From an uncultured delta proteobacterium (GTDB lineage: Bacteria; Desulfobacterota; Binatia; UTPRO1), in contig CAVWBS010000001.1 of assembly GCA_963753325.1 (NCBI GenBank), positions 1,835,945-1,899,944 on the forward strand: a DNA stretch of 64,000 bases, given 5' to 3'. The notes under the pieces are model-generated. The model did not search any database, was not told the origin of the DNA, and saw only the letters and a list, made by a program, of their open reading frames with translations. Made by a program: the position numbers and the translations under genes. Positions 5,382 through 33,653 of the stretch are shown here, one piece after another. Each line of letters begins with the position of its first letter. Positions within the stretch are counted from its first letter, which is position 1.

Positions 5382-7979
5382 ATGCCGTTCGACCCGGCGT
5401 CGGGAGCCTACGTCGACATGCGGGTGGCCCGCGGCTTTCCCCTCGGCGGCATGGGGAGCGGCGGGATCGCCCTCAACACCGACGGGAGCTTCGGCGAGCT
5501 GCGCCTGAACAACAACTGGATGTGCCCGATCCGCGGCCCCGCCGGGAGCTTCCACGCGTGCTTCGCTGAGCGCGATGGGGCGCCGAGCGAGACCGTGCTG
5601 CTGCGCATGGCCCCGGGCGCGGACGTCCCCGGCGCACCGGCCTGGCGCGAGTACGAGGGCGTCCGCCACGTGCGCTCGACCACGTTCGTCGGCACGCTCC
5701 CGACGTTCCGTCTGCGCTACGACGATACGCTGCCCGTCGAGCGTCACGCTCGACGGGTTCACCCCGCACGTCCCCCACGACGTCCGCGCCTCGACGCTGC
5801 CGGCCGCCGTCTTTCGCTTCCGTCTCGAGAATCCCGGCGACGATCCGGTCGATGCGGCGCTGCTCTTTTCGTTCGAGAACGTCCTCGGACGCGGCGGCAC
5901 CGGCCATCTCGGCGTCGAGCTCGGTGCCGACGACGTGCTCCGCGCCGTGCGCGCACCGCGCGTGTACGACGACATCGGCGGCAACCACCAGCTGAGGGTC
6001 GAGACCGCGGGCCGCCGCGGCGTCCGCTTCCGCACCGCTCAGCACCATGGCCCGCGCTCGCACCGCGCCGGCGTGACGGGTGAATACCTGATGCTCGTCG
6101 AGCCCGACGCCGACCTCGAGGTGACCGTCTGCGAGGAGTGGGATGCCGCCGCCCCGCGGGCGAGCGTCCTCGACGAGTTCGCGCGCGACGGACGCGTCCG
6201 CTCGCATCCGACCGGCGGCGCGGCCGGCGGCTCCCCGTCGCCCCGCCGCGGCGATCGCGGCCCGCATGACGCTCGCGCCGGGCGCCGACGCGTGAGATCG
6301 TCTTCGTGCTGGCCTGGTGGACGGCCGACCACGTGACCGGGCCGGCACCCGTGGGCCCGCAACCGACGGGATCCGCCGTCGACCGACGCCGGGCCGCGCG
6401 AGGGCACGTGGCGTCGGCCACGTCTACGCCACGTATTTCGCGACCTCGACGCGCTGCGGCGTACGTGCTCGACGAGCGCCGGCAGCTCGAGGAGCGACTC
6501 GACCGAGGTGGTCGCGGCTGCTGCGACGCCTCGATCGCTGCCGCCCTGGCTGGTGCGCGCGCTCGCGAACTCGATCGACGCGGTGCTGTGCAACTCGGTC
6601 GTCCCGGCGAGCGGCCGGCTGTACACGATCGAGGGCGTCGACTGGCGCTGGCCGATGGGCGGCCTCACCGGCACGAACGACCAACGGCTCGCCGCGCACC
6701 CTATCTGGCGACGTTCTTCACCGAGCTGAACCTCACCGAGCTCGACGAGTTCCGCCGCCTGCGGCGACGAGCGCGGCGCGATCCCGCACGGCAACGGCAA
6801 CTGCGACCTCGGCCTCGGCACGACCGACGTGCCCTACGGCTGGCCGATCGTCCATCAAGGGACTTCCTGCCGGCGAAGGAATGGACCGATCTCACGATGT
6901 CGCTGGTCGCTGCAGGTCTGCAAGCTGTGGCGCCGTACCGGCCGCCAGGACGTGCTCGAGCGCTTCTGGCCGGACGCTGTGCGCGGCATGGAGTACCTGC
7001 GCGCGATCGCGCCGCGCGGCGTTCCCGAGGGCGGCACCACCTTCGACGTCTGGGAGCTTGCCGGGCGTGTTCGCCTACACGCGCGACGCTCTACCTCGCG
7101 AGCCTGCGCGATGATGGCCGACATGGCCGGGCGATCGAGCCCGCGAGCGCGCCGCAGCCTATCAATCGCGCTCGCCACCTGCGCCGGCGCGCTCGAGGAC
7201 GAGCTGTGGGACGAGCGCGGCTTCTATCGCACCAGCCGCCGACGCACGACACGATGTTCACCGCGCGCTCGCCGGCGACTGGCTCGCGCGCTACGCCGGG
7301 GCGGACCCGGTGCCGATCCGGTCCGGGCCGCGAGCCATCTGCGCCACCCGCGCACCAGCGCGCGTCGCTGGTGACGCGGCGGTCGCGGCGCGCAGGGCCG
7401 CTACCGCGCGCTGCCGCGCGCCGAGGCGCACTTCGACGGCACCGAGGTGCGTGAACCGGCGATGGGGCCGGGCTGCCGCCGGCGAGGAGATGACCTACGT
7501 CTGGCAGGTGCTATCCCTACCAGGCCAGCGCTGCAGATCCAGGTCGGGCAGGTCGACGCAGGCGCTGCGCACGCATGCAGTTGATCTACGATCGTCTGTG
7601 GCGCGATGGCAACGCGTGGAGCGGCGGGCCTGCGCGGCAACGACGAGTCCATCTACATGACGCATCCGGCGGTGTGGGCGGTGCTGCAGCGCGTTCACCG
7701 GAGCCGCGCTCGACGTGCCCGCGCGGACGCTCGTCGTCTGGCCACGCTCGGCGGGCGAGATCGCGCGGCTGCGCTGCCCGTTCTTCTTTCCCCGCTGTGG
7801 GCGATGCTCGACTACGATCCCGGCAACGGCACGATCGCAGATCGAGGTCGTCCGTCACGTTCGGCACGCCGGTGACGATCGACCACGTCGCGCTGCGCGG
7901 CGCCTCGGGAGCGCTGCGCCGCATCACCATCCCGGAGACGGAGCTGGCCGAGGGCTGGAGCCTCGAGCTGACGCTCTGA
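5382..7979 (+). pseudogene. GH116-type beta-glucosidase (GBA2/glucosylceramidase-like), interrupted by many frameshifts
   Basis: The N-terminal GFPLGGMGSGGIALNTDGSFGELRLNNN matches the GH116 N-domain. Later family-like segments continue in different frames, in ORFs 5575.., 6306.., 6317.., 6508.. (LPPWLVRALANSIDAVLCNS...YTIEGVDWRWPMGGLTG), 6829.. and 7575..7979. Confidence 0.7.
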
Positions 7980-8055: not shown

Positions 8056-9929
8056 GTGGACGAGCCTGACCGCGCCTCCAGCGCGGATCGCCTGCCGGTA
8101 GCGCCCTCGCTCGGCCCGACGCTCGCGGCGGCGAACCTGCCGCAGCCCTCGGCGCTGGTCGACCGGCGTGTGGTGCTCGTCAGCGGCCTCGCCGTAGCGC
8201 TCGCCGCCGGCGCCACGGTGATCGCCCGCGCGCTCACGGCGCTCATCGGTCTCGTCACCAATCTCGCCTTCTACGGCCGCGTCTCGATCGCGTTCGTCTC
8301 GCCCGCGGACCACCACCTCGGGCTCGCGAGCCTCGCGGTGCCCGTCGCCGGCGGCCTCGTCGTGGGCGTCATGGCGCGCTACGGCTCGCAGGCGATCCGC
8401 GGCCACGGCATCCCCGAGGCGATGGAGCAGGTGCTCCTCAACGAGAGCCGCATCCCGCCGCGCATGACGTTCCTCAAGCCGCTCTCCGCGGCGATCGCGA
8501 TCGGCACCGGCGGGCCGTTCGGCGCCGAGGGACCGATCATCGCCACCGGCGGCGCGCTCGGCTCGCTGCTCGGGCAGCTGCTCGCGATGACGGCCGACGA
8601 GCGCAAGACGCTGCTCGCCGCCGGCGCCGCCGCCGGCATGGCGGCCACCTTCGGCAGCCCGGTCGTCGGCGGTGCTGCTGGCGATCGAGCTGCTGCTCTT
8701 CGAGCTGCCGGCCGCGCTCGCATCATCCCGGTCGCGCTGGCCAGTGCGACCGCCGCCGGACTGCGGGTGGCGCTCGTCGGCGCCGCGCCGATGTTCCCGC
8801 TCGCCGGCATTGCGCCGCCGACGGTGCCGGCGCTCGTCGCTCTACATCGCCATCGGCGCGCTCGTCGGCGTCGCCGCGGTCGACGTGACGCGGCTCGTGT
8901 ACGCCATCGAGGACGCCTTCGAGAAGCTGCCGATCCACTGGATGTGGTGGCCGGCGCTCGGCGGGCTCGTCGTCGGCGTGGTCGGGCTACTCGCACCGCG
9001 CACGCTGGGCGTCGGCTACGACAACATCAGCGGAATCGTCGCCGGCGATCTCGCCGGCCGCGCCGTGCTCCTGCTGTGCGCCCTGAAGCTCGTCTCGTGG
9101 GCGATCGCGCTCGGCAGCGGCACGTCCGGCGGCACGCTGGCGCCGCTCTTCACCATCGGCGGCGGGCTCGGCGCCGCGCTCGGCGCCATGGCGCATGACG
9201 CTCCTCCCGCACGCGGGGCTCGACCCGCGCATCGCCGCGCTGGTCGGCATGGCGGCGATCTTCGCCGGCGCCTCGCGCGCGCTGCTCACCTCGGTCGTCT
9301 TCGCCTTCGAGACGACGCTGCAGCCGCTCGGCCTGCTGCCGCTGCTCGGCGGCTGCACGGCGGCCTATCTCATGTCCTGCCTGATGATGCGCACCACCAT
9401 CATGACCGAGAAGATCGTGCGCCGCGGCGTGCGCGTGCCGGCGGAGTACGTCGCCGACTTCCTCGATCAGGTCCTGGTGCGCGACACGGCCTCACACGAC
9501 GTCGTCGCGCTCCGCGCCGGCGACAGCCTGGCGGCCGTCCGCGCCTGGCTCGGCTCGGGCGCGCACGGCACACAGCATCAGGGCTTCCCGGTTCTCGACG
9601 GACGCGATCGGCTGGTCGGCGTGCTCACCCGCCGCGATCTGATCGGCGCCGCGGACGCCGACACGTCGCGCCGGATCGAGCAGCTCGTCACCCGCGCGCC
9701 GCTGGTCGTGTACGACGACTGCTCGCTGCGCGAAGCGGCCGACCACATGGCCGATCACGACGTCGGCCGCTTGCCGGTCGTGACGCGCGCCACGCCCCAC
9801 CGGGTCGTCGCCATGCTGACTCGCAGCGATCTCCTGGGTGCGCACCGGCCGCGCCTCGCCGAGCAGCGGCACGCGGGCCCCGTGCTGCAGGTCGGTCGGC
9901 GACGCGGCCTACGCTCAGCGCCCGCATGA
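8056..9929 (+). pseudogene. ClC-family chloride channel/transporter with C-terminal CBS pair, at least 4 frameshifts
   Basis: ClC motifs GHGIPE, GGPFGAEGP and GGTLAPLFTIGG, plus two CBS-like repeats (GFPVLDGRDRLVGVLTRRDL, VGRLPVV...VAMLTRSDL). Consecutive segments lie in ORFs 8056..9198, 8672..10012 and 9195..9929. Confidence 0.75.
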
Positions 9930-22079: not shown

Positions 22080-26484
<4,405 letters not shown>

Positions 26485-26491
26485 TTCCGGA

Positions 26492-27497
26492 TCACACGTG
26501 GTTGCGCAGCATCAGCTCCTTCGGATGCGGCGCCAGATACAATCTGGCCCCGGACGTACGCGATGCCGTGCCGCTCGACGTGATGGCGCAGCAACGTCAG
26601 CGGTACGACCAGCGGAACGAGCCCGTGCCGGTAGTCCTCGATGAGGGTCACGAGCTCCTGGCGCTCCCCGGCCGCGAGATGCGCGTGGCAGAATCCGGCG
26701 AGATGCTGCAGCACGTTGACGTGCCGCTTCACGGTTGCGGGGGTGGCGAGCGCCTTCATGAGGCCTTCCCCGTAGCGTCGCGCGAGCGCGAGGGCGCGCA
26801 CGCCCTTGCTGTCGCCGATCAGCCGTCCGAGCGCCCCGTAGGCGCGCGGGCTGTGCGCGAGGACGAGGAACTTGTGCGCGGTGTGGAACGCCACGACGGC
26901 GCCGCGGGTCGGCGCGGCGAGCAGCGTCCGCCAGCGTCGATAGCAGAAGATCCGCTCGATGAAGTTCTCGCGCAGCACCGGATCGTTGAGGCGACCCTCC
27001 TCCTCCACCGGCAGCAGCGGATACGCATCCATGAACGCCGCGGCGAAGATGCCGCGACCGCGGCGTCCCGGCATGCCACCGTCGCCGTAGACCCGCACCC
27101 GCTCCATGCCGCAGCTCGGCGAGTCCTTCTTGAACACGTAACCGGAGAGGTCGAGTGCCGCGAGCGCCCGCACGCGGCCGGCGGCATACCGCCGCATCGC
27201 AGCCGTGTGATCGGCGCCGCTGCGTACCCCGATCAGACGGGGCGCAGCCGGGTCGCCGACGAGCCGCACGGATTCGCGCGGCACCCCCATGCCGCTCTCC
27301 AGCTCGGGGCAGACGGGAATCCAGTCGACGTAGCGTCCGAGGACGTCGGTGAGAAATCGATCGCGCTTGTGGCCGCCGTCGAAGCGTACGCTCGCGCCGA
27401 GGAGGCAGCTGCTCACGCCCAGGCGGAGGGGCGCCTCGGCATGCGCCGACGGCGCACCGGAGTGGTCCCGCGTATCGTCGGCGTCGTGCGGCACCAT
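26492..27497 (-). CDS. DUF523 (2-thiouracil desulfurase-like) + DUF1722 (YbgA-like) fusion protein, one frameshift near 26540
   Basis: N-terminal LGVSSCLLGASVRFDGGHKRD..VCPE matches DUF523, and the C-terminal half is YbgA-like. The family-typical ending YLAPHPKELMLRNHV* is recovered only after a 1-nt shift at about 26540. Confidence 0.75.
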
Positions 27498-27611
27498 GCG
27501 TCGAGTCTAGCGAGGGCGGAGCGGCGGCGGAACCACCGCGTGCCGGAATTGCATTCCCGGGGCCGCATCGTCATAGTCGCTCGAAATCGTATCCGTGGAG
27601 GAGGAGGACCC

Positions 27612-28124
27612 ATGCATCGAATGCTCATGATCGGCGCGCTGGCGCTCGCCATCGCCGCGTGCTCGAGGGGCAACAAGACCGCGATCGCGACCTTCCAACC
27701 GAAGAGCGGCACGCAGGTCACCGGCACGGCGACCTTCAATCAAGAAGGCGACAAGGTGCAGGTCGTCGTCAACGCCAAGAGCCTGACCCCCGGGAAGCAC
27801 GGCATCCACATCCACGAGAAGGGCGACTGCAGCGCGTCGGACGCGTCCTCCGCGGGGCCGCACTTCGCGCCGCACGACGGGCACCATGCCGGGCCCACCG
27901 ACGCGGGCCGTCACGCCGGCGACCTCGGTAATCTCGAGGCCGACTCCGACGGCAACGCGACGTGGACCATCACCACCGACGCGTTGTCCATCGGCAGGGG
28001 CGACAACGACATCGTCGGGCGCTCGATCGTCATCCACGGCGACCCCGACGATCTCACCACCCAGCCGTCGGGCAACTCCGGCGGCCGGATCGCCTGCGGC
28101 GTCATCGAGCTGAAGCAGGACTGA
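27612..28124 (+). CDS. sodC: Cu/Zn superoxide dismutase, lipoprotein-type signal
   Basis: SD GGAGGAGGA lies before the ATG. The signal/lipobox is LALAIAAC. Motifs present are HGIHIHEKGDC, GDLGN and GNSGGRIACGVI. Confidence 0.9.
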   Translation: MHRMLMIGALALAIAACSRGNKTAIATFQPKSGTQVTGTATFNQEGDKVQVVVNAKSLTPGKHGIHIHEKGDCSASDASSAGPHFAPHDGHHAGPTDAGRHAGDLGNLEADSDGNATWTITTDALSIGRGDNDIVGRSIVIHGDPDDLTTQPSGNSGGRIACGVIELKQD

Positions 28125-28128
28125 GCGC

Positions 28129-29787
28129 TCACGCCGGCGGAGCCTCGGCCAGCGCCCGCACGCGGGCGAGCGTGTCGACCTCCGCCGGCGGCTTGTCGTC
28201 CCGCACCCGCACGATGCGCGGGAAGCGCAGCGCGTAGCCGGCCCCGTGCCGGCTGGACGGCTGGACGACGTCGAACGTCACCTCGAGCACCACCTCGGGG
28301 CGTACCCGATGGTACCCGCCGGCGCGTTCGAGCGTCAGCGCCTCGAACCGCGGCGTGAGCGCCGCGATCTCGGCATCGGTGAGGCCATTGTACGCCTTGC
28401 CGACGGTCAGCAGCGTCGGGTCCGTCTCGGAGGCGCGCACCGCGAACGTGTAGTCGGAGAGGACGGCGTGGCGACGCCCGTGTCCGCGCTCCGCCGCCAC
28501 CACGACGACGTCGAGCGTCGCCAGCGGACGCTTCAGCTTGATCCACGCGCCGCCGCGCCGGCCGGGCGCGTAGGCGGCGCCGCGATCCTTCGCGACGATG
28601 CCCTCGTTGCCGGCGGCGCGCGCGGCGACGAACGCCGCCTCGACGTCGTCGCCCGTCGAGGCCGGCCGCGTCGGCGCGAGCCGGATCGTCGGCCCCGACC
28701 ACGGCAGCGCCTCGAGCCGGCGGCGGCGCGTCTCGTAGGCCTCGTCGACCACCAGCACGCCGTCGGCCGCGAGCACGTCGTACGCGACGAACGCGACCGG
28801 AACGGCCGCCAGCAGCTCGGCGCTCGGGCGTTTGCGCCCGAGGCGCCGCTGCAGCGCCCGGAACGGCAGCGCGCGCGCGGGTGCGGCGGGATCGTAGGCG
28901 AGCAGCTCCCCGTCGAGGACCATACCCGTCGGCAGCGCGCCGAGCGCGGTCACGACCTCGGGATAGCCGTGCTCGATCGCGTCGAGGGTACGCGAGAAGA
29001 GCACGACCCGGCCGGCGCCGACGTGCGCCTGCGCGCGGATGCCGTCGTACTTGTTCTCCACCGCGAACGGCACCGGCAGTGCCGCCGCGACCTCGGCGGC
29101 GGTCGCGAGCGGCTGCGCCAACATGAAGCCGATCGGATGGAAGAGCGCCAGCGTGGCGGCGGCGAGCGTGCCATGGCGCGCCGCCAGCGCGACCTCGCCG
29201 ATATCCCCGCGCAGCAGGTTGGCACGGCGGATCGCCGCGATCGGCCGTACGAACGCCGCCGCCAGCGCCTCCTCGACCTGGGACTCCTTGAGGCCGATGC
29301 GCAGCTCGCCGCCGAGGAGCTTGGTCAGGTACCGCGCCTCGACGCCGCCGAGCCGCGCCAGCGTCTCGTACAGCAGGGCGAGACGCGCGTTGGTCCCGCG
29401 TGTCGCGGCGAGCGTGCGGCACACGCGCTCGATCTCGACCAACGTCGTTCCGCTCGGCGCGCGGTGGCGCAGCACGGCACCGGCGAGGTCGCCGGTGTCG
29501 CCGAAGGACACGTAGCGCTCCCCGAGGGCGGCCTCGTCCCGGCCGCTCGCCGCGGCGAGCGCCGCGAACGCCAGCGCGCCCCCGACCTTCGTCGTGCCGG
29601 CGTCGTGCCGCGGGAACACCACGCCGGAGAAGAAGCGCGCCGCGATCGCGAGCGACGCGTCGTCGAGCGGCGGGAGATACTCGACCAGCAGCGCACGCTT
29701 CTCGAGCCGGCGCGCGGTGGCGCGGATCGCGTCCGCGACCTCGCTCCAGTGCTGCAGCGTGCCGACGCCCGGCGTCGCGCCGGTCAC
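28129..29787 (-). CDS. ATP-dependent DNA ligase (three-domain LigB/Cdc9-like type)
   Basis: Adenylation motif I ENKYDGIRAQ, an N-terminal DNA-binding-domain-like region (EKRALLVEYL...FFSGVVFP), and a C-terminal OB-like region. The GTG start at 29787 overlaps the upstream gene's stop (GTGA). Confidence 0.85.
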   Translation of the reverse strand: MTGATPGVGTLQHWSEVADAIRATARRLEKRALLVEYLPPLDDASLAIAARFFSGVVFPRHDAGTTKVGGALAFAALAAASGRDEAALGERYVSFGDTGDLAGAVLRHRAPSGTTLVEIERVCRTLAATRGTNARLALLYETLARLGGVEARYLTKLLGGELRIGLKESQVEEALAAAFVRPIAAIRRANLLRGDIGEVALAARHGTLAAATLALFHPIGFMLAQPLATAAEVAAALPVPFAVENKYDGIRAQAHVGAGRVVLFSRTLDAIEHGYPEVVTALGALPTGMVLDGELLAYDPAAPARALPFRALQRRLGRKRPSAELLAAVPVAFVAYDVLAADGVLVVDEAYETRRRRLEALPWSGPTIRLAPTRPASTGDDVEAAFVAARAAGNEGIVAKDRGAAYAPGRRGGAWIKLKRPLATLDVVVVAAERGHGRRHAVLSDYTFAVRASETDPTLLTVGKAYNGLTDAEIAALTPRFEALTLERAGGYHRVRPEVVLEVTFDVVQPSSRHGAGYALRFPRIVRVRDDKPPAEVDTLARVRALAEAPPA

Positions 29788-30923
29788 GACCCGTCGCGCA
29801 GGTAGCCCTGCACCGTCGTCCGCGCGAAGCGCTCCGCGTCGGCACGATCGAGCGGCGTCCCCGCCGCGAGCCGGTCGGCATACTGGAAGAGCGGCACGAA
29901 GAGCTCGCCGCGATCGGGCGCCGCGCGCAGGGTGAACCGCCGGTGCCGCGCGATGACGTCTTCCCAGGCGCGGCGGACATCCTCCCAGAACGGCTCGGTA
30001 CGCTCCCGGTAGTGCCGCGCCGCGGAGTCGTCGAAGTTCCTGACGCGCTCGTAGCGGGCGAGCCCGTATTCCTTGGCCAGGACCGGCGCGTCGCCGGCCG
30101 GCACCCCGCGCCCGTCCAGCACGACCTTGAGGTTCTCCTCCTCCTGCACCCACCCGGTCGGCGTGATGGTCACCCGATTGGTGCCGATGAGGACGTCGTA
30201 GTCGTGGCGCACGGAGTACTCGCGGCGCGGCAACGGCCGCCACGTCCGCTCGCTCAGCCACGTCGAGACGTTGCCGAAATGCTCCCAACGGCCGGCCGCT
30301 TCGTAGCGCGGCGAGTCGTCGACCTGGAAGACGGCCTGTGTCCACGTCCCCTTGGCACGCGCCGCGGAACGGCGCTCCGTCGCCCACGTCTCATGACCGC
30401 GGTATGTCAGCACGCTGCGATCCTCGTAGCGCCACTCCTGCCGCCAGTGCTTGGTGACGAACGGTCCCTCGACGCGTCCGTCGGGCTGCTCGATGAACAT
30501 CACCAGCAGGTGCTGCAGGCTGATGCGGGTCGGCTCGTCCCGTACGACGTAGACGTACTCGGTTCCCCACGATTGGTACGGACGGTCGTGGACGAAATCG
30601 GGGCGGAAGCCCATGACCTCGAGGAAGTCGAAGGTGACGCGATACGTTCCCGCCATCGCGAGAATGGCGGCGCGGTCGTGCGCCAGCGCCGACCCGGCCG
30701 GATCGCGCAGACGCCGCCAGGCGTCGCTCGGCGTCGGGTCGAGCTCGACGGCCGGCCCGTGCGTCGTCCCACCGCGTGGCACGACCGGGTCGCGCCAGGC
30801 GAAGGTATAGCAGCGCGGTGCACCATCGGGCCGCACCGCGCCGGGCGTGCGCGTCCGCACGCAGCCGGCGGCGAGCACGAGCGCCGCGATCAGGTGAAGC
30901 GCTCGTCGGTCCACGAGGCGCAC
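29784..30923 (-). CDS. Uncharacterised lipoprotein
   Basis: GTG 30923 (or 30914) gives MRLVDRRALHLIAALVLAAGC (lipobox LAAGC), followed by a Trp/Arg/Tyr-rich globular sequence (HWRQEWRYEDR...). No family was recognised with confidence. Confidence 0.6.
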   Translation of the reverse strand: MRLVDRRALHLIAALVLAAGCVRTRTPGAVRPDGAPRCYTFAWRDPVVPRGGTTHGPAVELDPTPSDAWRRLRDPAGSALAHDRAAILAMAGTYRVTFDFLEVMGFRPDFVHDRPYQSWGTEYVYVVRDEPTRISLQHLLVMFIEQPDGRVEGPFVTKHWRQEWRYEDRSVLTYRGHETWATERRSAARAKGTWTQAVFQVDDSPRYEAAGRWEHFGNVSTWLSERTWRPLPRREYSVRHDYDVLIGTNRVTITPTGWVQEEENLKVVLDGRGVPAGDAPVLAKEYGLARYERVRNFDDSAARHYRERTEPFWEDVRRAWEDVIARHRRFTLRAAPDRGELFVPLFQYADRLAAGTPLDRADAERFARTTVQGYLRDGS

Positions 30924-30979
30924 GGCCGCATGCTGCCGGTCCGACACCCCGAGCGCAAGAACGGTGGCGCGACCGCGGG

Positions 30980-31333
30980 TTACGAGCGGGGCGGCGTGTC
31001 CCGACCGGTGAGGTAGTCGCCCAGCATGCCGCGCGTGTGCTCCGCCTCGTGGCAGTAGGCGCAGAGGTTCTCCCAGTTGCTGCCGTCGGGCGGATTGTGC
31101 TCGTGGTTGCCGTCGCGATGATGCACCGTCAACAGGTGCAGCGTGTCGGCATCGAACTCGCGCGCGCAGCGCGCGCAGATCCACCCGTGCAGCGCGAGGG
31201 AGCGCTCGCGGTAGCCGTGCGCGCGCGCGGCGCGCGCCGACTTCGCCTCGCGCACCAGCTCCTCCATCGAGGGCTTCGCGCCGGCGCCGCCCTTGGCCGG
31301 TCGCCGGGACGGACGGAAGCTGCGCGTCGCCAC
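30980..31333 (-). CDS. yajD: YajD-family HNH endonuclease
   Basis: 117 aa with HGWICARCAREF..LTVHHRDGNHEHNPPDGSNWENLCAYCHEAEH, which closely parallels E. coli YajD (PWVCGRCSREF..LTVHHIDHDHTNNPEDGSNWELLCLYCHDHEH). Confidence 0.8.
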   Translation of the reverse strand: MATRSFRPSRRPAKGGAGAKPSMEELVREAKSARAARAHGYRERSLALHGWICARCAREFDADTLHLLTVHHRDGNHEHNPPDGSNWENLCAYCHEAEHTRGMLGDYLTGRDTPPRS

Positions 31334-31340
31334 CCGGACC

Positions 31341-32153
31341 CTACAGCCGCAGCACGGCCGGCAGCTCGTCCGGGGCGAAGCGCACGCCCACGTAGAACGA
31401 TCCGAACAAGCCGTAGAGCGCGCTCGCCGCGTCGAAGCGCATCTCGTAGACCACGTCGCGGATCGCCTTCAGGTCGGCGGCGAACAACGTCACGCCCCAC
31501 TCCCAATCGTCGAGGCCGGTCGCACTGGTGATGAGCTGGGTGATGCGGCTCGCGTAGCGACGGCCCGAATCGCCGTGGCCCTGCATCAGCTTCTTCCGTT
31601 CCTCGAACGGGAGCGCGTACCAGTTCCGTCCGGCGTCGCGCGCCTTCGCCATCGGATAGAAGCACACGATCGGGAAGTTGTCCGGGAGACGGGGGTGCAT
31701 CCGCGCCTCGAGATAGTGCGCGATCCGCTTGCGGAACGCCTCCATCCGCGTGGCGAAATCGGGCGACGTCGGATCGATCTTCTGCTCCTCGATCAAGGCA
31801 CGCGACCAGTCGGCCTCGCTGGTGACGTACTCGCTCGCCTCCGAGATCGAAAGGAAGGTATAGATCGGCTCGAGGCACGCCCCGAGCGCCGTCGCGGCGA
31901 TCTCCTGACCGAGCTGCTGATGGCGGCGCAGATCGGGGTGGACCACCATCAGGCCCACGTCGCCCTTGCCGATCATCGCCAGCGGCACGAGCTGCATGCC
32001 CTCCTCGCCGAGCGCGCCGCTCAGGACACCGCGGAACCGCTCGACGGCCGCCGCACGCTCCTCGGCCGCGAGCACCCCCCAGCGTGCGCGATCGATGCGG
32101 TAGAACCAGTGCGACACCGGCCAGCCGGCCGAAGGGATGAGCGCGTCGGGCAT
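31341..32153 (-). CDS. Chlorite dismutase family protein (Cld/HemQ/ChdC-like)
   Basis: 270 aa from ATG 32153 (MPDALIPSAGW...). Cld-family features include WYALPFEERKKLMQGHG and the C-terminal region DDWEWGVTLFA. Only the C-terminal third of the 709-aa track ORF looks coding. Confidence 0.75.
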   Translation of the reverse strand: MPDALIPSAGWPVSHWFYRIDRARWGVLAAEERAAAVERFRGVLSGALGEEGMQLVPLAMIGKGDVGLMVVHPDLRRHQQLGQEIAATALGACLEPIYTFLSISEASEYVTSEADWSRALIEEQKIDPTSPDFATRMEAFRKRIAHYLEARMHPRLPDNFPIVCFYPMAKARDAGRNWYALPFEERKKLMQGHGDSGRRYASRITQLITSATGLDDWEWGVTLFAADLKAIRDVVYEMRFDAASALYGLFGSFYVGVRFAPDELPAVLRL

Positions 32154-32221
32154 GAGCGGGATTGTAGGAAGCGCCCGGGGGGCCGTCAATTGACCATGTC
32201 CCCGCGCGGCTTCGCCTGCCG

Positions 32222-32698
32222 TCAACGCATGACGGCGCCGGCGACGGCGAGGAAGAGGAGGGCCAGCACGGTGGTATTGAGCATGCTCGAGACCGCGTGC
32301 AGTCGCAGGTAGCGTTCGTCGTCGCGGCTCGGAATGGCGCGAAGACGCGGCAGGAGCACGTACTGCGACGCCAGGCTGCAGAGGAGTCCCCCCGCGACCG
32401 GCAAGGCCAGGCGCAACGCCTCCGCGACCGGCAGGCCGCCCGAGCGCGCGGCGGAGACCGCGGCCAGCGCGACGAAGCCGCAGCCGATGCCGGCGAAGTA
32501 GTAGCGTGGAAAGAGGCGCCGCAGGAGGCGGGTGGCGTCGCCGGGAGCGCTGGTGCGGTGGATGGCGGGAAGGACGACGTACGAGAAGCAGACGATCGTT
32601 CCCAGCCAGATCGCGACCGCGATCACGAACACCAGACGCAGCACGATCGCTGTTCTTCGCACGAGCGTCGCGCCCACCGCAACCACCACCGCAACCAT
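32222..32698 (-). CDS. DUF4149-like integral membrane protein
   Basis: 158 aa with four hydrophobic segments. The sequence AIWLGTIVCFSYVVLPAI...LFPRYYFAGI resembles the TMEM205/DUF4149 family. Confidence 0.55.
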   Translation of the reverse strand: MVAVVVAVGATLVRRTAIVLRLVFVIAVAIWLGTIVCFSYVVLPAIHRTSAPGDATRLLRRLFPRYYFAGIGCGFVALAAVSAARSGGLPVAEALRLALPVAGGLLCSLASQYVLLPRLRAIPSRDDERYLRLHAVSSMLNTTVLALLFLAVAGAVMR

Positions 32699-32783
32699 CG
32701 GTTGTGGGCGGATGCTCGCGGCTGCTAGTGTCTGGGTTCTGAAGTCCGTTGCCTAAGGTCACGAGGGATTTTCGGCGCCAGCC

Positions 32784-33653
32784 ATGGACCCGAGCCCGTT
32801 CTTCGCGCAGCACGAGGTGCACGTCGGCAAGGACCTCGGCGGCCGCGCGGCGGTGGTCGACGACGCGACGATCGCACGCTACGAGGCCGGCACCGGCGCC
32901 GCCGCGGCCCGGTTCGCGCTCGACGGCACGCGCGTCGCGCCCGCGACGCTGTTCCACTCCGAAGTCTACCGCAGCCTCGCATGGTACCTGCCGAACGTCT
33001 TCGGCAATCTGCATGCGCGCCAGGAATGGGAGTTCTACGCGCCGCTGATCGTCGGCACCACCGTGCGCACCCGCTCGACGGTCGTCGAGCGCTACGTCAA
33101 GCGCGATCGTGACTACGTGGTGAACGAGGTGCTGATCACCGACGAGCAGGGCCGCTGGCTGCAACGCAGCCGCACACACCAGAGCTTCCTCGCGGCCGAG
33201 CGCCACGGTACGCTCGTCGTCGACCGCGAGCGCGAGAGGCGGCCGGACCGGCGCTTCACGATCGGCGAAGGCCCCGGCGAGGAGATCCCGCCGCTCGAGC
33301 GCGTCATCACGCGCGCGATGTGCGTCGCCTTCTCGGGCCCGGAAAAGAACTACCACACCGACGAGGGCATGGCGCGCGCGCTCGGGTTCCCCGACATCGT
33401 CGTGCAGGGCATGCTCTCCGTGTGCTTCGTCGCCGACCTCATGGCGCACGCCTTCGGCCTCGGTTGGCACCTCGCGGGCAAACTCGACGTCCGGCTCGTG
33501 AACGTCGTCTGGCCGCGCGACGCGATCGTGGTGCGTGGCAAGGTGCGCGAGGAGCTTCCCGAAGGCAGTCGTCGCCGTGCGCTGCTCGATGTCTGGTGCG
33601 AGAAACCGGACGGCACGAAGACCGTCGTCGGAACCGCCAGCGCGCTGCGCTGA
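32784..33653 (+). CDS. MaoC-like (R)-hydratase, double hot-dog fold
   Basis: 289 aa. The C-terminal half carries the hydratase-type NYHTDEGMARALGFPDIVVQGM, and the N-terminal half is a degenerate hot-dog. Confidence 0.75.
   Translation: MDPSPFFAQHEVHVGKDLGGRAAVVDDATIARYEAGTGAAAARFALDGTRVAPATLFHSEVYRSLAWYLPNVFGNLHARQEWEFYAPLIVGTTVRTRSTVVERYVKRDRDYVVNEVLITDEQGRWLQRSRTHQSFLAAERHGTLVVDRERERRPDRRFTIGEGPGEEIPPLERVITRAMCVAFSGPEKNYHTDEGMARALGFPDIVVQGMLSVCFVADLMAHAFGLGWHLAGKLDVRLVNVVWPRDAIVVRGKVREELPEGSRRRALLDVWCEKPDGTKTVVGTASALR

What the first reader, a model, noticed from the sequence alone, without database searches (positions are those of the whole stretch)
28129..32698. Same-strand cluster DUF4149 / Cld-like / YajD HNH / lipoprotein / ATP-dependent DNA ligase with GTGA start-stop overlap
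Five minus-strand genes run head to tail:
- The gap between Cld-like and yajD is 7 nt.
- The gap between yajD and the lipoprotein is about 56 nt.
- The lipoprotein stop (TGA 29786-29784) overlaps the ligase GTG start (29787-29785), the classic signature of translational coupling.

Coupling an exported lipoprotein (lipobox LAAGC) to a cytoplasmic DNA ligase, downstream of an HNH nuclease and a haem-related Cld-family protein, is an odd combination. No pathway I know explains it. Either the operon is a fortuitous packing of unrelated genes, or the lipoprotein, HNH nuclease and ligase form an uncharacterised unit, for example oxidative-damage or envelope-stress-linked repair. Cu/Zn SOD lies immediately downstream on the other strand.
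Basis: partly seen in the sequence, partly recalled or inferred. Interest (0 to 1): 0.6.

Follow-up and report, generated by a model that had tools for sequence, protein, structure and literature searches.

The report
Haem-binding lipoprotein gene abutting DNA ligase
The five-gene cluster and its four-base start/stop overlap are real, but the lipoprotein and the DNA ligase are unrelated neighbours that came together only within one genus of uncultured soil bacteria (class Binatia); the lipoprotein belongs to the family of a recently solved haem-scavenging protein.

Summary
On the minus strand lie DUF4149, a Cld/HemQ-like gene, yajD, a DUF6607 lipoprotein gene and a three-domain ATP-dependent DNA ligase gene. 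The gaps are as reported, and the DUF6607 stop overlaps the ligase GTG start (GTGA, 29787-29784).

The "uncharacterised unit" reading does not hold.
- Across the family, the backbone is MaoC | DUF4149-Cld-YajD | SodC-DUF523/DUF1722-Lhr.
- In other genera the slot between yajD and sodC is empty. There the ligase sits among histidine-biosynthesis genes and DUF6607 elsewhere; where its neighbours were read, beside an Mla-like transporter.
- Within the window's genus the slot holds both genes (5 assemblies, overlap kept), DUF6607 alone (2 genomes, no such ligase found) or the ligase alone (2 genomes, no DUF6607 found).
- None of 80 DUF6607 loci from other lineages has a ligase, YajD or Cld within 6 kb.

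The lipoprotein is a member of the RhuH haemophore family (PDB 8XJC). Its profile matches at E=2e-67, the fold at TM 0.85-0.89, and the haem-ligating His plus three of five modelled propionate contacts are invariant. In about ten proteobacterial genomes its homologue directly abuts a TonB-dependent receptor; the three tested are haem-type.

Verdict: fortuitous, young and unstable gene packing. The useful result is the annotation DUF6607 = RhuH family.

The parts
32222..32698 (-). DUF4149 membrane protein gene (158 aa). It lies upstream of the promoter-like site, so it is probably a separate transcript or read-through.
   Evidence: PF13664, 52.1 bits. Syntenic in the genus and in G007.
32161..32189 (-). 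Sigma-70-like promoter TTGACG-17-TACAAT. The -10 element ends 7 nt before the Cld ATG, which is the geometry of a leaderless transcript.
   Evidence: 10 of 12 matches; 1 site found against 0.1 expected in shuffles. Function is inferred, not shown.
31341..32153 (-). Cld-family gene, HemQ/ChdC-like (coproheme decarboxylase-like), 270 aa.
   Evidence: PF06778, 163 bits. NF008913 gives 241.8 bits, just under its cut-off of 253. Nearest solved structures are Geobacillus HemQ 1t0t and Listeria ChdC.
30980..31333 (-). YajD-family HNH nuclease gene, 117 aa. It is paired with the Cld gene in all family-level genomes examined.
   Evidence: NF008448, 107.5 bits against a cut-off of 87. Cld-YajD adjacency in 11 of 11 family genomes, but not in G031.
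29784..30923 (-). DUF6607 / RhuH-family haem-binding lipoprotein gene, 379 aa. Lipobox LAAGC with Cys21. Predicted haem ligand His159, with Arg206, Tyr207 and Arg234.
   Evidence: PF20311, 217.5 bits. Profile against PDB 8xjc: E=2e-67. AF2 model pLDDT 80.6; Foldseek TM 0.85-0.89 against 8xjc. These residues are invariant in 97 sequences.
29784..29787 (-). GTGA start/stop overlap between the DUF6607 gene and the ligase gene.
   Evidence: Read directly from the sequence. A 4-nt overlap is kept in all 5 assemblies that carry both genes: read as GTGA in G003, and seen from gene-call coordinates on three metagenome contigs.
28129..29787 (-). Three-domain (DNA-binding, nucleotidyltransferase, OB) ATP-dependent DNA ligase gene, 552 aa. 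Motif I is ENKYDGIR.
   Evidence: PF04675, PF01068 and PF04679. Below the cut-offs of all NCBIfam equivalogs. Nearest solved structures are archaeal ligases 2cfm and 3rr5, E about 1e-77.
27612..28124 (+). Convergent Cu/Zn superoxide dismutase gene, which marks the far edge of the variable slot. It also carries a lipobox (AIAAC).
   Evidence: PF00080, 158 bits. Translation. Relatives call a 170-aa product.

Best explanation
This is a compact, co-directional string of functionally unrelated genes, probably transcribed from a promoter just upstream of the Cld-like gene.

- The stable core, kept across the family, is the Cld/HemQ-like gene plus yajD, followed by a convergent sodC.
- In the ancestor of the window's genus, two stand-alone accessory genes that sit elsewhere in sister genera came to lie in the gap between yajD and sodC. 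One is an exported RhuH-family haem-binding lipoprotein (DUF6607). The other is a three-domain ATP-dependent DNA ligase.
- Their reading frames were packed to a 4-nt GTGA overlap, a common arrangement in this genome.
- The overlap probably makes ligase translation depend partly on ribosomes finishing the lipoprotein frame. It does not indicate a shared function.
- Each gene was later lost on its own in different species of the genus.

Shown: the gene identities, the overlap, the distribution of the three slot states, the absence of the adjacency elsewhere, and RhuH homology with a conserved haem ligand.

Inferred: a single transcript, translational coupling, the order of events (joint presence then differential loss), and haem binding by this particular protein.
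For: (1) Slot states within the genus, all on identical flanks:
- DUF6607 plus ligase in G000, G003 and three metagenome contigs.
- DUF6607 only in G001 and G002, with no P0002-like ligase anywhere in those 92-93% complete genomes.
- Ligase only in G004 and G005, with no DUF6607 in those 96-100% complete genomes.

(2) In sister genera (G007, G011, G013, G014, G018) the same backbone has yajD directly followed by sodC.

(3) In the sister-genus genomes that carry both genes, the ligase and DUF6607 are on different contigs or 1.4 Mb apart. In five of the six ligase loci examined outside the genus, the ligase lies on the opposite strand between hisD and hisB-hisH-hisA-hisF. In the two such DUF6607 loci whose neighbours were read, DUF6607 lies beside MlaE/ABC/MlaD/ABC_trans_aux genes.

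(4) None of 80 DUF6607 loci from Proteobacteria, Verrucomicrobiota, Thermodesulfobacteriota and others has a ligase, YajD or Cld within 6 kb.

(5) In G004 and G005 the ligase has its own upstream region, with TAGAAT 6 nt before its GTG. It therefore does not need the lipoprotein gene for expression.

(6) About 251 NTGA overlaps are available genome-wide.

(7) DUF6607 is the RhuH family (PMC11967795). About ten homologues directly abut a TonB-dependent receptor, and the three tested are over the haem-type cut-offs. Nine loci also carry an HmuTUV-like ABC importer; the one ATPase tested is over the heme ABC ATPase cut-off. This points to an envelope haem role unrelated to DNA joining.
Against: - The overlap is kept over about 15-18% protein divergence in all five assemblies that have both genes, so the packed state is not selected against. 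Co-expression could carry some benefit.
- Several neighbours share an oxidative or haem theme: an H2O2-using HemQ-like enzyme, a haem-binding lipoprotein and SodC.
The operon structure therefore rests on a consensus promoter match.
- Absence calls rest on draft genomes that are 92-100% complete.
Confidence: 0.85

Rival explanations
1. The lipoprotein, YajD HNH nuclease and ligase form a dedicated, previously undescribed repair or envelope-stress module. The GTGA overlap enforces fixed stoichiometry between lipoprotein and ligase.
For: - Same-strand arrangement with tight spacing and a 4-nt overlap, conserved in 5 assemblies.
- An Lhr helicase gene lies about 1.6 kb away.
Against: - Each gene occurs without the other at the same slot in the same genus, and the slot is empty in sister genera. 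The genes are unlinked there, and 0 of 80 loci elsewhere show the adjacency.
- The lipoprotein is exported and homologous to a haemophore, so it is in a different compartment from the ligase.
- Lhr is the long housekeeping type. It scores 431 against a cut-off of 850 for TIGR04121 and stays in place when the ligase is absent.
Confidence: 0.03
2. The genes have no joint biochemical function, but they are co-regulated. In this genus the haem-binding lipoprotein and the ligase were recruited into the HemQ-like/yajD transcript next to sodC because expression under haem, iron or oxidative stress is useful for both: haem handling for one, and sealing of oxidative nicks for the other.
For: - A single promoter-like site lies upstream of Cld, and no convincing terminator was found before the ligase stop.
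- The neighbours share a theme: a HemQ-like enzyme that uses H2O2, a RhuH-like haem binder and Cu/Zn SOD.
- The overlap is retained in the sub-clade.
Against: - The arrangement is confined to one genus, and half of its sampled species lost one of the two genes.
- In G004 and G005 the ligase carries its own promoter-like element.
- No expression data are available.
Confidence: 0.1
3. The overlap, or one of the gene boundaries, is an artefact of indel errors in this long-contig assembly.
For: Genome completeness is only 76% although the assembly has just 3 contigs.
Against: - All five genes are intact.
- Four independent assemblies give the same gene lengths and the same 4-nt overlap.
Confidence: 0.01

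Closest known systems
RhuH haemophore of Riemerella anatipestifer (PDB 8XJC; Wang et al., Adv Sci 2025, PMC11967795); Pfam DUF6607 (PF20311)
   Same: - Same Pfam family: the RhuH segment scores 302 bits and the window protein 217.5 bits.
- Same fold: a beta-barrel-like domain followed by C-terminal helices, TM 0.85-0.89 at 31-32% identity.
- The haem-iron ligand His96 corresponds to His159.
- Arg143, Tyr144 and Arg170 correspond to Arg206, Tyr207 and Arg234, and all are invariant.
- Both proteins are exported.
   Different: - The window protein carries a lipobox Cys, so it should be lipid-anchored. The RhuH authors describe a signal peptide without a membrane anchor and release in outer-membrane vesicles.
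- RhuH Arg183 and Gln198 are replaced by Gly and Glu here.
- No haem-type TonB-dependent receptor lies nearby, or scores over the cut-off anywhere in the genome.
- The host is a free-living soil bacterium, so haemoglobin is unlikely to be the haem source.
- The paper places homologues mainly in Flavobacteriales, whereas at least 589 loci were found in other phyla.
Three-domain ATP-dependent DNA ligases of bacteria and archaea (mycobacterial LigB type; archaeal Lig such as Pyrococcus furiosus 2CFM)
   Same: - Domain order is DNA_ligase_A_N, _M, _C, and the KxDG adenylation motif is present.
- Full-length matches to 2cfm, 3rr5 and 3gde at E between 1e-72 and 1e-78.
- A stand-alone accessory gene, as LigB is in mycobacteria (general knowledge).
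   Different: - Below every NCBIfam equivalog cut-off: PRK09247 346.8 against 543, TIGR04120 325.4 against 400, PRK03180 324 against 641.
- Its start codon overlaps the stop of an unrelated exported-protein gene.
Ligase-associated DNA damage response cluster (TIGR04120 ligase, TIGR04121 Lhr-Core-like DEXH helicase, exonuclease, PdeM phosphoesterase; Pseudomonas putida type)
   Same: An ATP-dependent ligase and an Lhr-family helicase lie within 2 kb of each other.
   Different: - The ligase and the helicase both score below the family cut-offs (325.4 against 400; 431 against 850).
- The helicase is the long Lhr (about 1470 aa in relatives). It is convergent and separated from the ligase by sodC and a DUF523/DUF1722 gene.
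- The helicase stays in place where the ligase is absent, and the ligase lies elsewhere in sister genera.
- No exonuclease or PdeM genes are seen in the cluster.
Translationally coupled ATGA/GTGA gene pairs in bacterial operons
   Same: The 4-nt start/stop overlap has no evident Shine-Dalgarno sequence before the ligase GTG, judged by eye on the sequence. Termination-reinitiation is therefore a plausible way to start ligase translation.
   Different: Classical coupled pairs encode subunits or pathway partners and keep their adjacency widely. This adjacency is genus-limited, and either gene can be lost.

Membership tests
RhuH haemophore family / Pfam DUF6607 | Sequence match to the family model above the curated cut-off | tested here: met
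   - PF20311 scores 217.5 bits against a cut-off of 27 over residues 75-375.
- The RhuH segment itself scores 302 bits on the same model.
- The profile of 16 homologues hits 8xjc at E=2e-67.
RhuH haemophore family / Pfam DUF6607 | [quoted passage not shown] | tested here: met
   - AF2 model with pLDDT 80.6 and pTM 0.79.
- Foldseek against 8xjc_A and 8xjc_B gives E about 4e-26 and target-normalised TM 0.85-0.89. The next hit is at E=1e-4.
RhuH haemophore family / Pfam DUF6607 | Haem-iron ligand His96. In RhuH the H96A mutant loses about 10^6-fold in affinity (PMC11967795). | tested here: met
   It aligns with His159 in the KHWRQ(D/E)W motif. His is present in 97 of 97 aligned family members.
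RhuH haemophore family / Pfam DUF6607 | Residues contacting the haem propionates in the AlphaFold3 model of RhuH: Arg143, Tyr144, Arg170, Arg183, Gln198 | tested here: inconclusive
   - Arg206, Tyr207 and Arg234 are conserved in 97 of 97 sequences.
- Arg183 is replaced by Gly (94 of 97), and Gln198 by Glu (76) or kept as Gln (21).
- These contacts are themselves a model in the source paper.
RhuH haemophore family / Pfam DUF6607 | Exported from the cytoplasm | tested here: met
   - N-terminal basic, then hydrophobic, then LAAGC lipobox; the Cys is invariant in 16 homologues.
- Most proteobacterial homologues instead have an ordinary signal peptide.
- No dedicated signal-peptide predictor was available.
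RhuH haemophore family / Pfam DUF6607 | Binds haem, extracts it from a haemoprotein and hands it to a TonB-dependent receptor | not testable with these tools
   - This needs biochemistry.
- Context support comes from other genomes only. About 10 of 80 loci directly abut a TonB-dependent receptor; the three tested are over the TIGR01785/TIGR01786 cut-offs. Nine loci carry HmuTUV-like genes.
- No receptor over the cut-off was found in this genome or its relatives.
Ligase-associated DNA damage response cluster (TIGR04120-04123) | Ligase reaches the TIGR04120 equivalog cut-off | tested here: not met
   325.4 bits against a cut-off of 400.
Ligase-associated DNA damage response cluster (TIGR04120-04123) | Adjacent DEXH helicase of the TIGR04121 type, with exonuclease and PdeM genes in one cluster | tested here: not met
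   - The Lhr N-terminal part scores 431 against a cut-off of 850 for TIGR04121.
- Its best matches are the long Lhr models PRK13767 and PRK09751.
- Neither partner gene is among the window's neighbours.
Functionally coupled operon pair (lipoprotein-ligase unit) | Adjacency conserved across divergent genomes | tested here: not met
   - Present only in one sub-clade of one genus.
- Each gene occurs alone at the same slot.
- The genes are unlinked in 6 family genomes that carry both.
- 0 of 80 loci elsewhere show it.
YajD family HNH nuclease | NCBIfam equivalog NF008448 above its cut-off, with an HNH motif | tested here: met
   NF008448 scores 107.5 bits against a cut-off of 87, and PF01844 scores 34.9 bits.
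Coproheme decarboxylase ChdC/HemQ | NCBIfam equivalog NF008913 above its cut-off | tested here: inconclusive
   - 241.8 bits against a cut-off of 253, aligned over the full length.
- Nearest solved structures are HemQ/ChdC.
- Catalytic residues and the rest of the coproporphyrin pathway were not checked.

The most novel reading that the evidence does not exclude
In this Binatia genus a RhuH-type haem-binding lipoprotein was drawn into the transcript of the HemQ-like haem synthase. The cell's only ATP-dependent ligase is then translated by re-initiation from the lipoprotein's stop codon. Nick-sealing capacity would thereby be tied to a haem or oxidative-stress programme. More broadly, DUF6607/RhuH proteins of free-living bacteria would be general envelope haem carriers rather than host-haemoglobin scavengers.
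Probability: 0.08. Interest if true: 0.5.

Novelty: new member of a known kind. Interest (0 to 1): 0.22.

Why it matters
For the question asked, the result is a clean negative. A tight overlap between an exported-protein gene and a DNA-repair gene turns out to be recent, unstable packing, not a new repair system. It also shows why a 4-nt overlap alone should not be read as functional linkage in a compact, high-GC genome.

The useful by-product concerns annotation. Pfam DUF6607 finds more than 5000 proteins in the large protein search and at least 589 loci in reference genomes. It is the family of the experimentally characterised haemophore RhuH.
- The haem-ligating histidine is invariant across the family.
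- The family is widespread well beyond Flavobacteriales, in Proteobacteria, Verrucomicrobiota, Thermodesulfobacteriota and Binatia.
- In about ten of the 80 loci examined the gene directly abuts a TonB-dependent receptor. The three receptors tested are haem-type, and nine loci also carry an HmuTUV-like importer.

This gives a testable function to a large "unknown" family in environmental bacteria.

Tried and rejected
- **Literature search for 'DUF6607'.** It returned 0 papers. The link to RhuH came from the fold and PDB sequence searches.
- **RhuA as the PDB 8xjc protein.** I first suspected this and rejected it. RhuA is described as a distant HmuY homologue, and 8XJC is RhuH.
- **A haem-type TonB-dependent receptor in this genome and its relatives, as a partner for DUF6607.**
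  - Only generic receptor matches were found, far below the cut-off.
  - An HmuV-like ABC ATPase just under its cut-off (242-251 bits against 261) is present in all eight genomes searched, whether or not they have DUF6607. It is therefore uninformative.
- **Ligase as part of the Lhr-linked 'ligase-associated DNA damage response' cluster.** Rejected on model scores and synteny.
- **Scars of the deletions.** I aligned the yajD-to-next-gene spacers of six genomes. No clear shared junction was found, and the similarity of the MSD... N-termini is too weak to use.
- **Terminator-like hit at 29659-29636, inside the ligase gene.** Treated as chance: 3 were found against 1.3 expected.
- **First ORF-file parse.** It read only 16 of the 80 loci and was repeated correctly.


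Full report
**1. What is there**

The window is part of a 4.9-Mb, 3-contig genome. Its closest protein relatives are labelled Candidatus Binatia.

On the minus strand, ORF listing, translation and Pfam/NCBIfam scans give five genes:
- DUF4149, 32222-32698.
- A Cld-family, HemQ/ChdC-like gene, 31341-32153. NF008913 scores 241.8 bits, just under its cut-off of 253.
- yajD, 30980-31333. NF008448 scores 107.5 bits, above its cut-off of 87.
- A DUF6607 protein, 29784-30923. PF20311 scores 217.5 bits.
- A three-domain ATP-dependent DNA ligase, 28129-29787, with DNA_ligase_A_N, _M and _C domains and motif I ENKYDGIR.

- 7 nt between the Cld gene and yajD.
- 56 nt between yajD and DUF6607.
- A GTGA overlap in which the DUF6607 TGA (29786-29784) shares three bases with the ligase GTG (29787-29785).
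- sodC (27612-28124, + strand) converges on the ligase, with 4 nt between the stop codons.

**2. Are the gene boundaries right?**

- The DUF6607 N-terminus (MRLVDRRALHLIAALVLAAGC) has a basic stretch, a hydrophobic stretch and a lipobox. The Cys is invariant in an alignment of 16 homologues.
- Ligase orthologues start 8-10 residues before a conserved TL(Q/H/E)xW motif, and so does the GTG at 29787.
- Independent gene calls on three metagenome contigs from close relatives give DUF6607 at 379 aa and the ligase at 551/552 aa. Their coordinates overlap by 4 nt.
- G003 shows the same GTGA.
- The assembly does contain indel errors elsewhere. lhr changes frame between about 24710 and 25021, and the DUF523/DUF1722 ORF is 464 aa against 319-336 aa in relatives. 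The five genes of the finding are intact and are corroborated by other assemblies.

**3. Is the overlap special?**

A rough scan of the whole genome, using open frames with GC3 of at least 0.85, gives these counts:
- 3139 same-strand neighbour pairs.
- 808 pairs whose downstream frame reaches back over the upstream stop.
- 251 pairs with an NTGA start/stop overlap available.

So the arrangement is commonplace here. It is only modestly above what base composition would give, which I estimate at about 22% of the 808 pairs against 31% observed.

**4. Is the lipoprotein-ligase adjacency conserved?**

No.

Searches of 61 related genomes for DUF6607 and of 20 for the ligase, followed by tblastn of all window proteins on the fetched loci, show one syntenic backbone in the window's genus. 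It reads MaoC | DUF4149-Cld-YajD-[slot]-sodC(convergent)-DUF523/DUF1722-Lhr.

The slot has three states:

| State of the slot | Where found | Status of the other gene |
|---|---|---|
| DUF6607 plus ligase | G000, G003 and three metagenome contigs | Both present |
| DUF6607 only | G001, G002 | No P0002-like ligase at E<=1e-20 anywhere in these 92-93% complete genomes |
| Ligase only | G004, G005 | No DUF6607 in these 96-100% complete genomes |

In G004 and G005 the ligase has its own 45-70-nt upstream region. A TAGAAT lies 6 nt before its GTG.

In sister genera of the same family (G007, G011, G013, G014, G018) the backbone is present, but yajD is followed directly by sodC. The slot is empty.

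In those genera the two genes are unlinked:
- In the six sister-genus genomes that carry both genes, they lie on different contigs or 1.4 Mb apart.
- In five of the six ligase loci examined outside the genus, the ligase lies on the opposite strand between hisD and hisB-hisH-hisA-hisF.
- In the two such DUF6607 loci whose neighbours were read, DUF6607 lies next to an MlaE/ABC/MlaD/ABC_trans_aux cluster.

A scan of one genome per species across GTDB returned at least 589 DUF6607 loci. In the best 80 of these, none has a ligase, YajD or Cld homologue within 6 kb at tblastn E<=1e-5. These 80 come from Burkholderiales, many Gammaproteobacteria, SAR86, Verrucomicrobiota, Thermodesulfobacteriota and others.

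The only conserved pair is Cld-YajD. It is adjacent in 11 of 11 genomes of the family, but not in G031 from another family.

**5. Reading of the history (inferred)**

The missing gene is absent from the whole genome in G001/G002 and in G004/G005. It has not simply remained at its sister-genus location. The simplest history is therefore that the ancestor of the genus had both genes in the slot, and each was later deleted on its own.

Whichever order is correct, each gene functions, or is dispensable, without the other.

**6. What the lipoprotein is**

- An AlphaFold2 model built on the 16-sequence alignment has mean pLDDT 80.6 and pTM 0.79. It shows an all-beta core followed by helices.
- Foldseek against the PDB gives one outstanding match, 8xjc chains A and B, "a novel haemophore of Riemerella anatipestifer". 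E is about 4e-26, target-normalised TM is 0.85-0.89 and identity is 31-32%. The next hit is at E=1e-4.
- The alignment profile hits the same chain by sequence at E=2e-67, 231 bits.
- The aligned RhuH segment scores 302 bits on PF20311. DUF6607 is therefore the RhuH family.

The source paper (PMC11967795) reports the following for RhuH:
- It binds haem with a Kd of 3.4e-11 M.
- It extracts haem from duck haemoglobin.
- It is released in outer-membrane vesicles.
- It ligates the haem iron through His96, and H96A lowers affinity about 10^6-fold.
- In an AlphaFold3 model, Arg143, Tyr144, Arg170, Arg183 and Gln198 contact the propionates.

In an alignment of 97 family members:
- His96, Arg143, Tyr144 and Arg170 are invariant. 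In the window protein they are His159, Arg206, Tyr207 and Arg234.
- Arg183 is replaced by Gly or Ala.
- Gln198 is Glu or Gln.

**7. Genomic context of the family**

Clustering the ORFs of the 80 loci gives these counts:
- A TonB-dependent receptor in 18 loci.
- The receptor directly adjacent, with a gap of 151 nt or less, in about 10 loci.
- An ABC importer (binding protein, FecCD permease, ATPase) in 9 loci.

The three receptors tested exceed the cut-offs of TIGR01786 and TIGR01785, the haem/haemoglobin receptor families. The ATPase tested exceeds the cut-off of the haem ABC ATPase model NF010068. This matches the experimental role of RhuH.

The export signal varies by lineage. Binatia and a few other lineages carry a lipobox, while most proteobacterial members have an ordinary signal peptide.

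In the window's genome and seven relatives no receptor reaches the haem-type cut-off. An HmuV-like ATPase just under its cut-off is present whether or not DUF6607 is. The partner of the Binatia protein therefore remains unknown.

**8. The ligase and Lhr**

- The ligase is closest to archaeal-type three-domain ligases such as 2cfm and 3rr5, at E about 1e-77.
- It stays under every NCBIfam equivalog cut-off, including TIGR04120, the "cisplatin damage response" ligase (325.4 against 400).
- The nearby Lhr is the long form. Its best matches are PRK13767 and PRK09751, and it scores 431 against 850 for TIGR04121.
- Lhr is convergent and separated from the ligase by two genes. It stays in place when the ligase is absent.
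- This is therefore not the known ligase-associated damage-response cluster.

**9. Likely expression (inferred)**

- The only strong sigma-70-like site in 27400-33000 is TTGACG-17-TACAAT at 32189-32161. It matches 10 of 12 positions, against 0.1 sites expected, and ends 7 nt before the Cld ATG. This is the geometry of a leaderless transcript.
- The same geometry appears before the ligase in G004 and G005.
I did not test that.
- No credible terminator precedes the ligase stop.
- Cld, yajD, DUF6607 and the ligase are thus probably one transcript. With no evident Shine-Dalgarno sequence before its GTG (judged by eye on the sequence), the ligase is probably translated by re-initiation.

**10. Verdict**

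- The finding is ordinary as an operon.
- Its by-product, that DUF6607 is the RhuH haem-binding family and is widespread outside Flavobacteriales, including lipid-anchored forms in Binatia, is a useful and testable annotation. It is a new member of a known kind, not a new kind of system.

Noticed in passing
window 24710-25021 (lhr) and 26103-26540 (3' part of the DUF523/DUF1722 ORF): lhr changes reading frame between its N- and C-terminal parts. The DUF523/DUF1722 ORF runs to 464 aa, against 319-336 aa in relatives. Both are probably single-base indel errors of a long-read assembly, which would fit 76% completeness in only 3 contigs.
   Followed up: partly
L004 about 7680-7720 and L005 about 8130-8170 (G005, G004): Where DUF6607 is absent, the ligase GTG is preceded by a conserved TAGAAT 6 nt upstream. 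The Cld ATG in the window has TACAAT 7 nt upstream. Leaderless transcripts may be common in this lineage.
   Followed up: partly
L007, L009, L012, L013, L014 (sister-genus genomes): The orthologous ATP-dependent ligase sits on the opposite strand inside the histidine-biosynthesis cluster, between hisD and hisB-hisH-hisA-hisF. That is an odd but conserved location in that genus.
   Followed up: partly
L015 3098-9179 and L016 4097-9161: In sister-genus Binatia, DUF6607 lies just downstream of an MlaE / ABC ATPase / MlaD / ABC_trans_aux (lipid-transport-like) cluster. A small gene on the opposite strand lies between them.
   Followed up: no
window 30980-32153 and family genomes: The pairing of the HemQ-like Cld gene with yajD, at a gap of 7-20 nt, is conserved in all 11 genomes of the family that were checked. 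It is absent in a genome of another family of the class. No reason for linking a haem enzyme to a small HNH protein is known to me.
   Followed up: partly
L075 74-2590 and 5893-7032 (Lysobacteraceae MAG): One of the 80 DUF6607 loci has an Lhr homologue (54% identity) 3.3 kb from DUF6607. As a single case, it is probably chance.
   Followed up: no
window 27612-28124: The Cu/Zn superoxide dismutase also begins with a lipobox (MHRMLMIGALALAIAAC). The slot is therefore flanked by a second predicted lipoprotein gene.
   Followed up: no
L019-L098: The RhuH paper places homologues mainly in Flavobacteriales. The genome scan found at least 589 loci elsewhere: Burkholderiales, Methylophilaceae, Halieaceae, SAR86, Steroidobacteraceae, Verrucomicrobiota and Thermodesulfobacteriota. 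Most of these have plain signal peptides rather than lipoboxes.
   Followed up: partly
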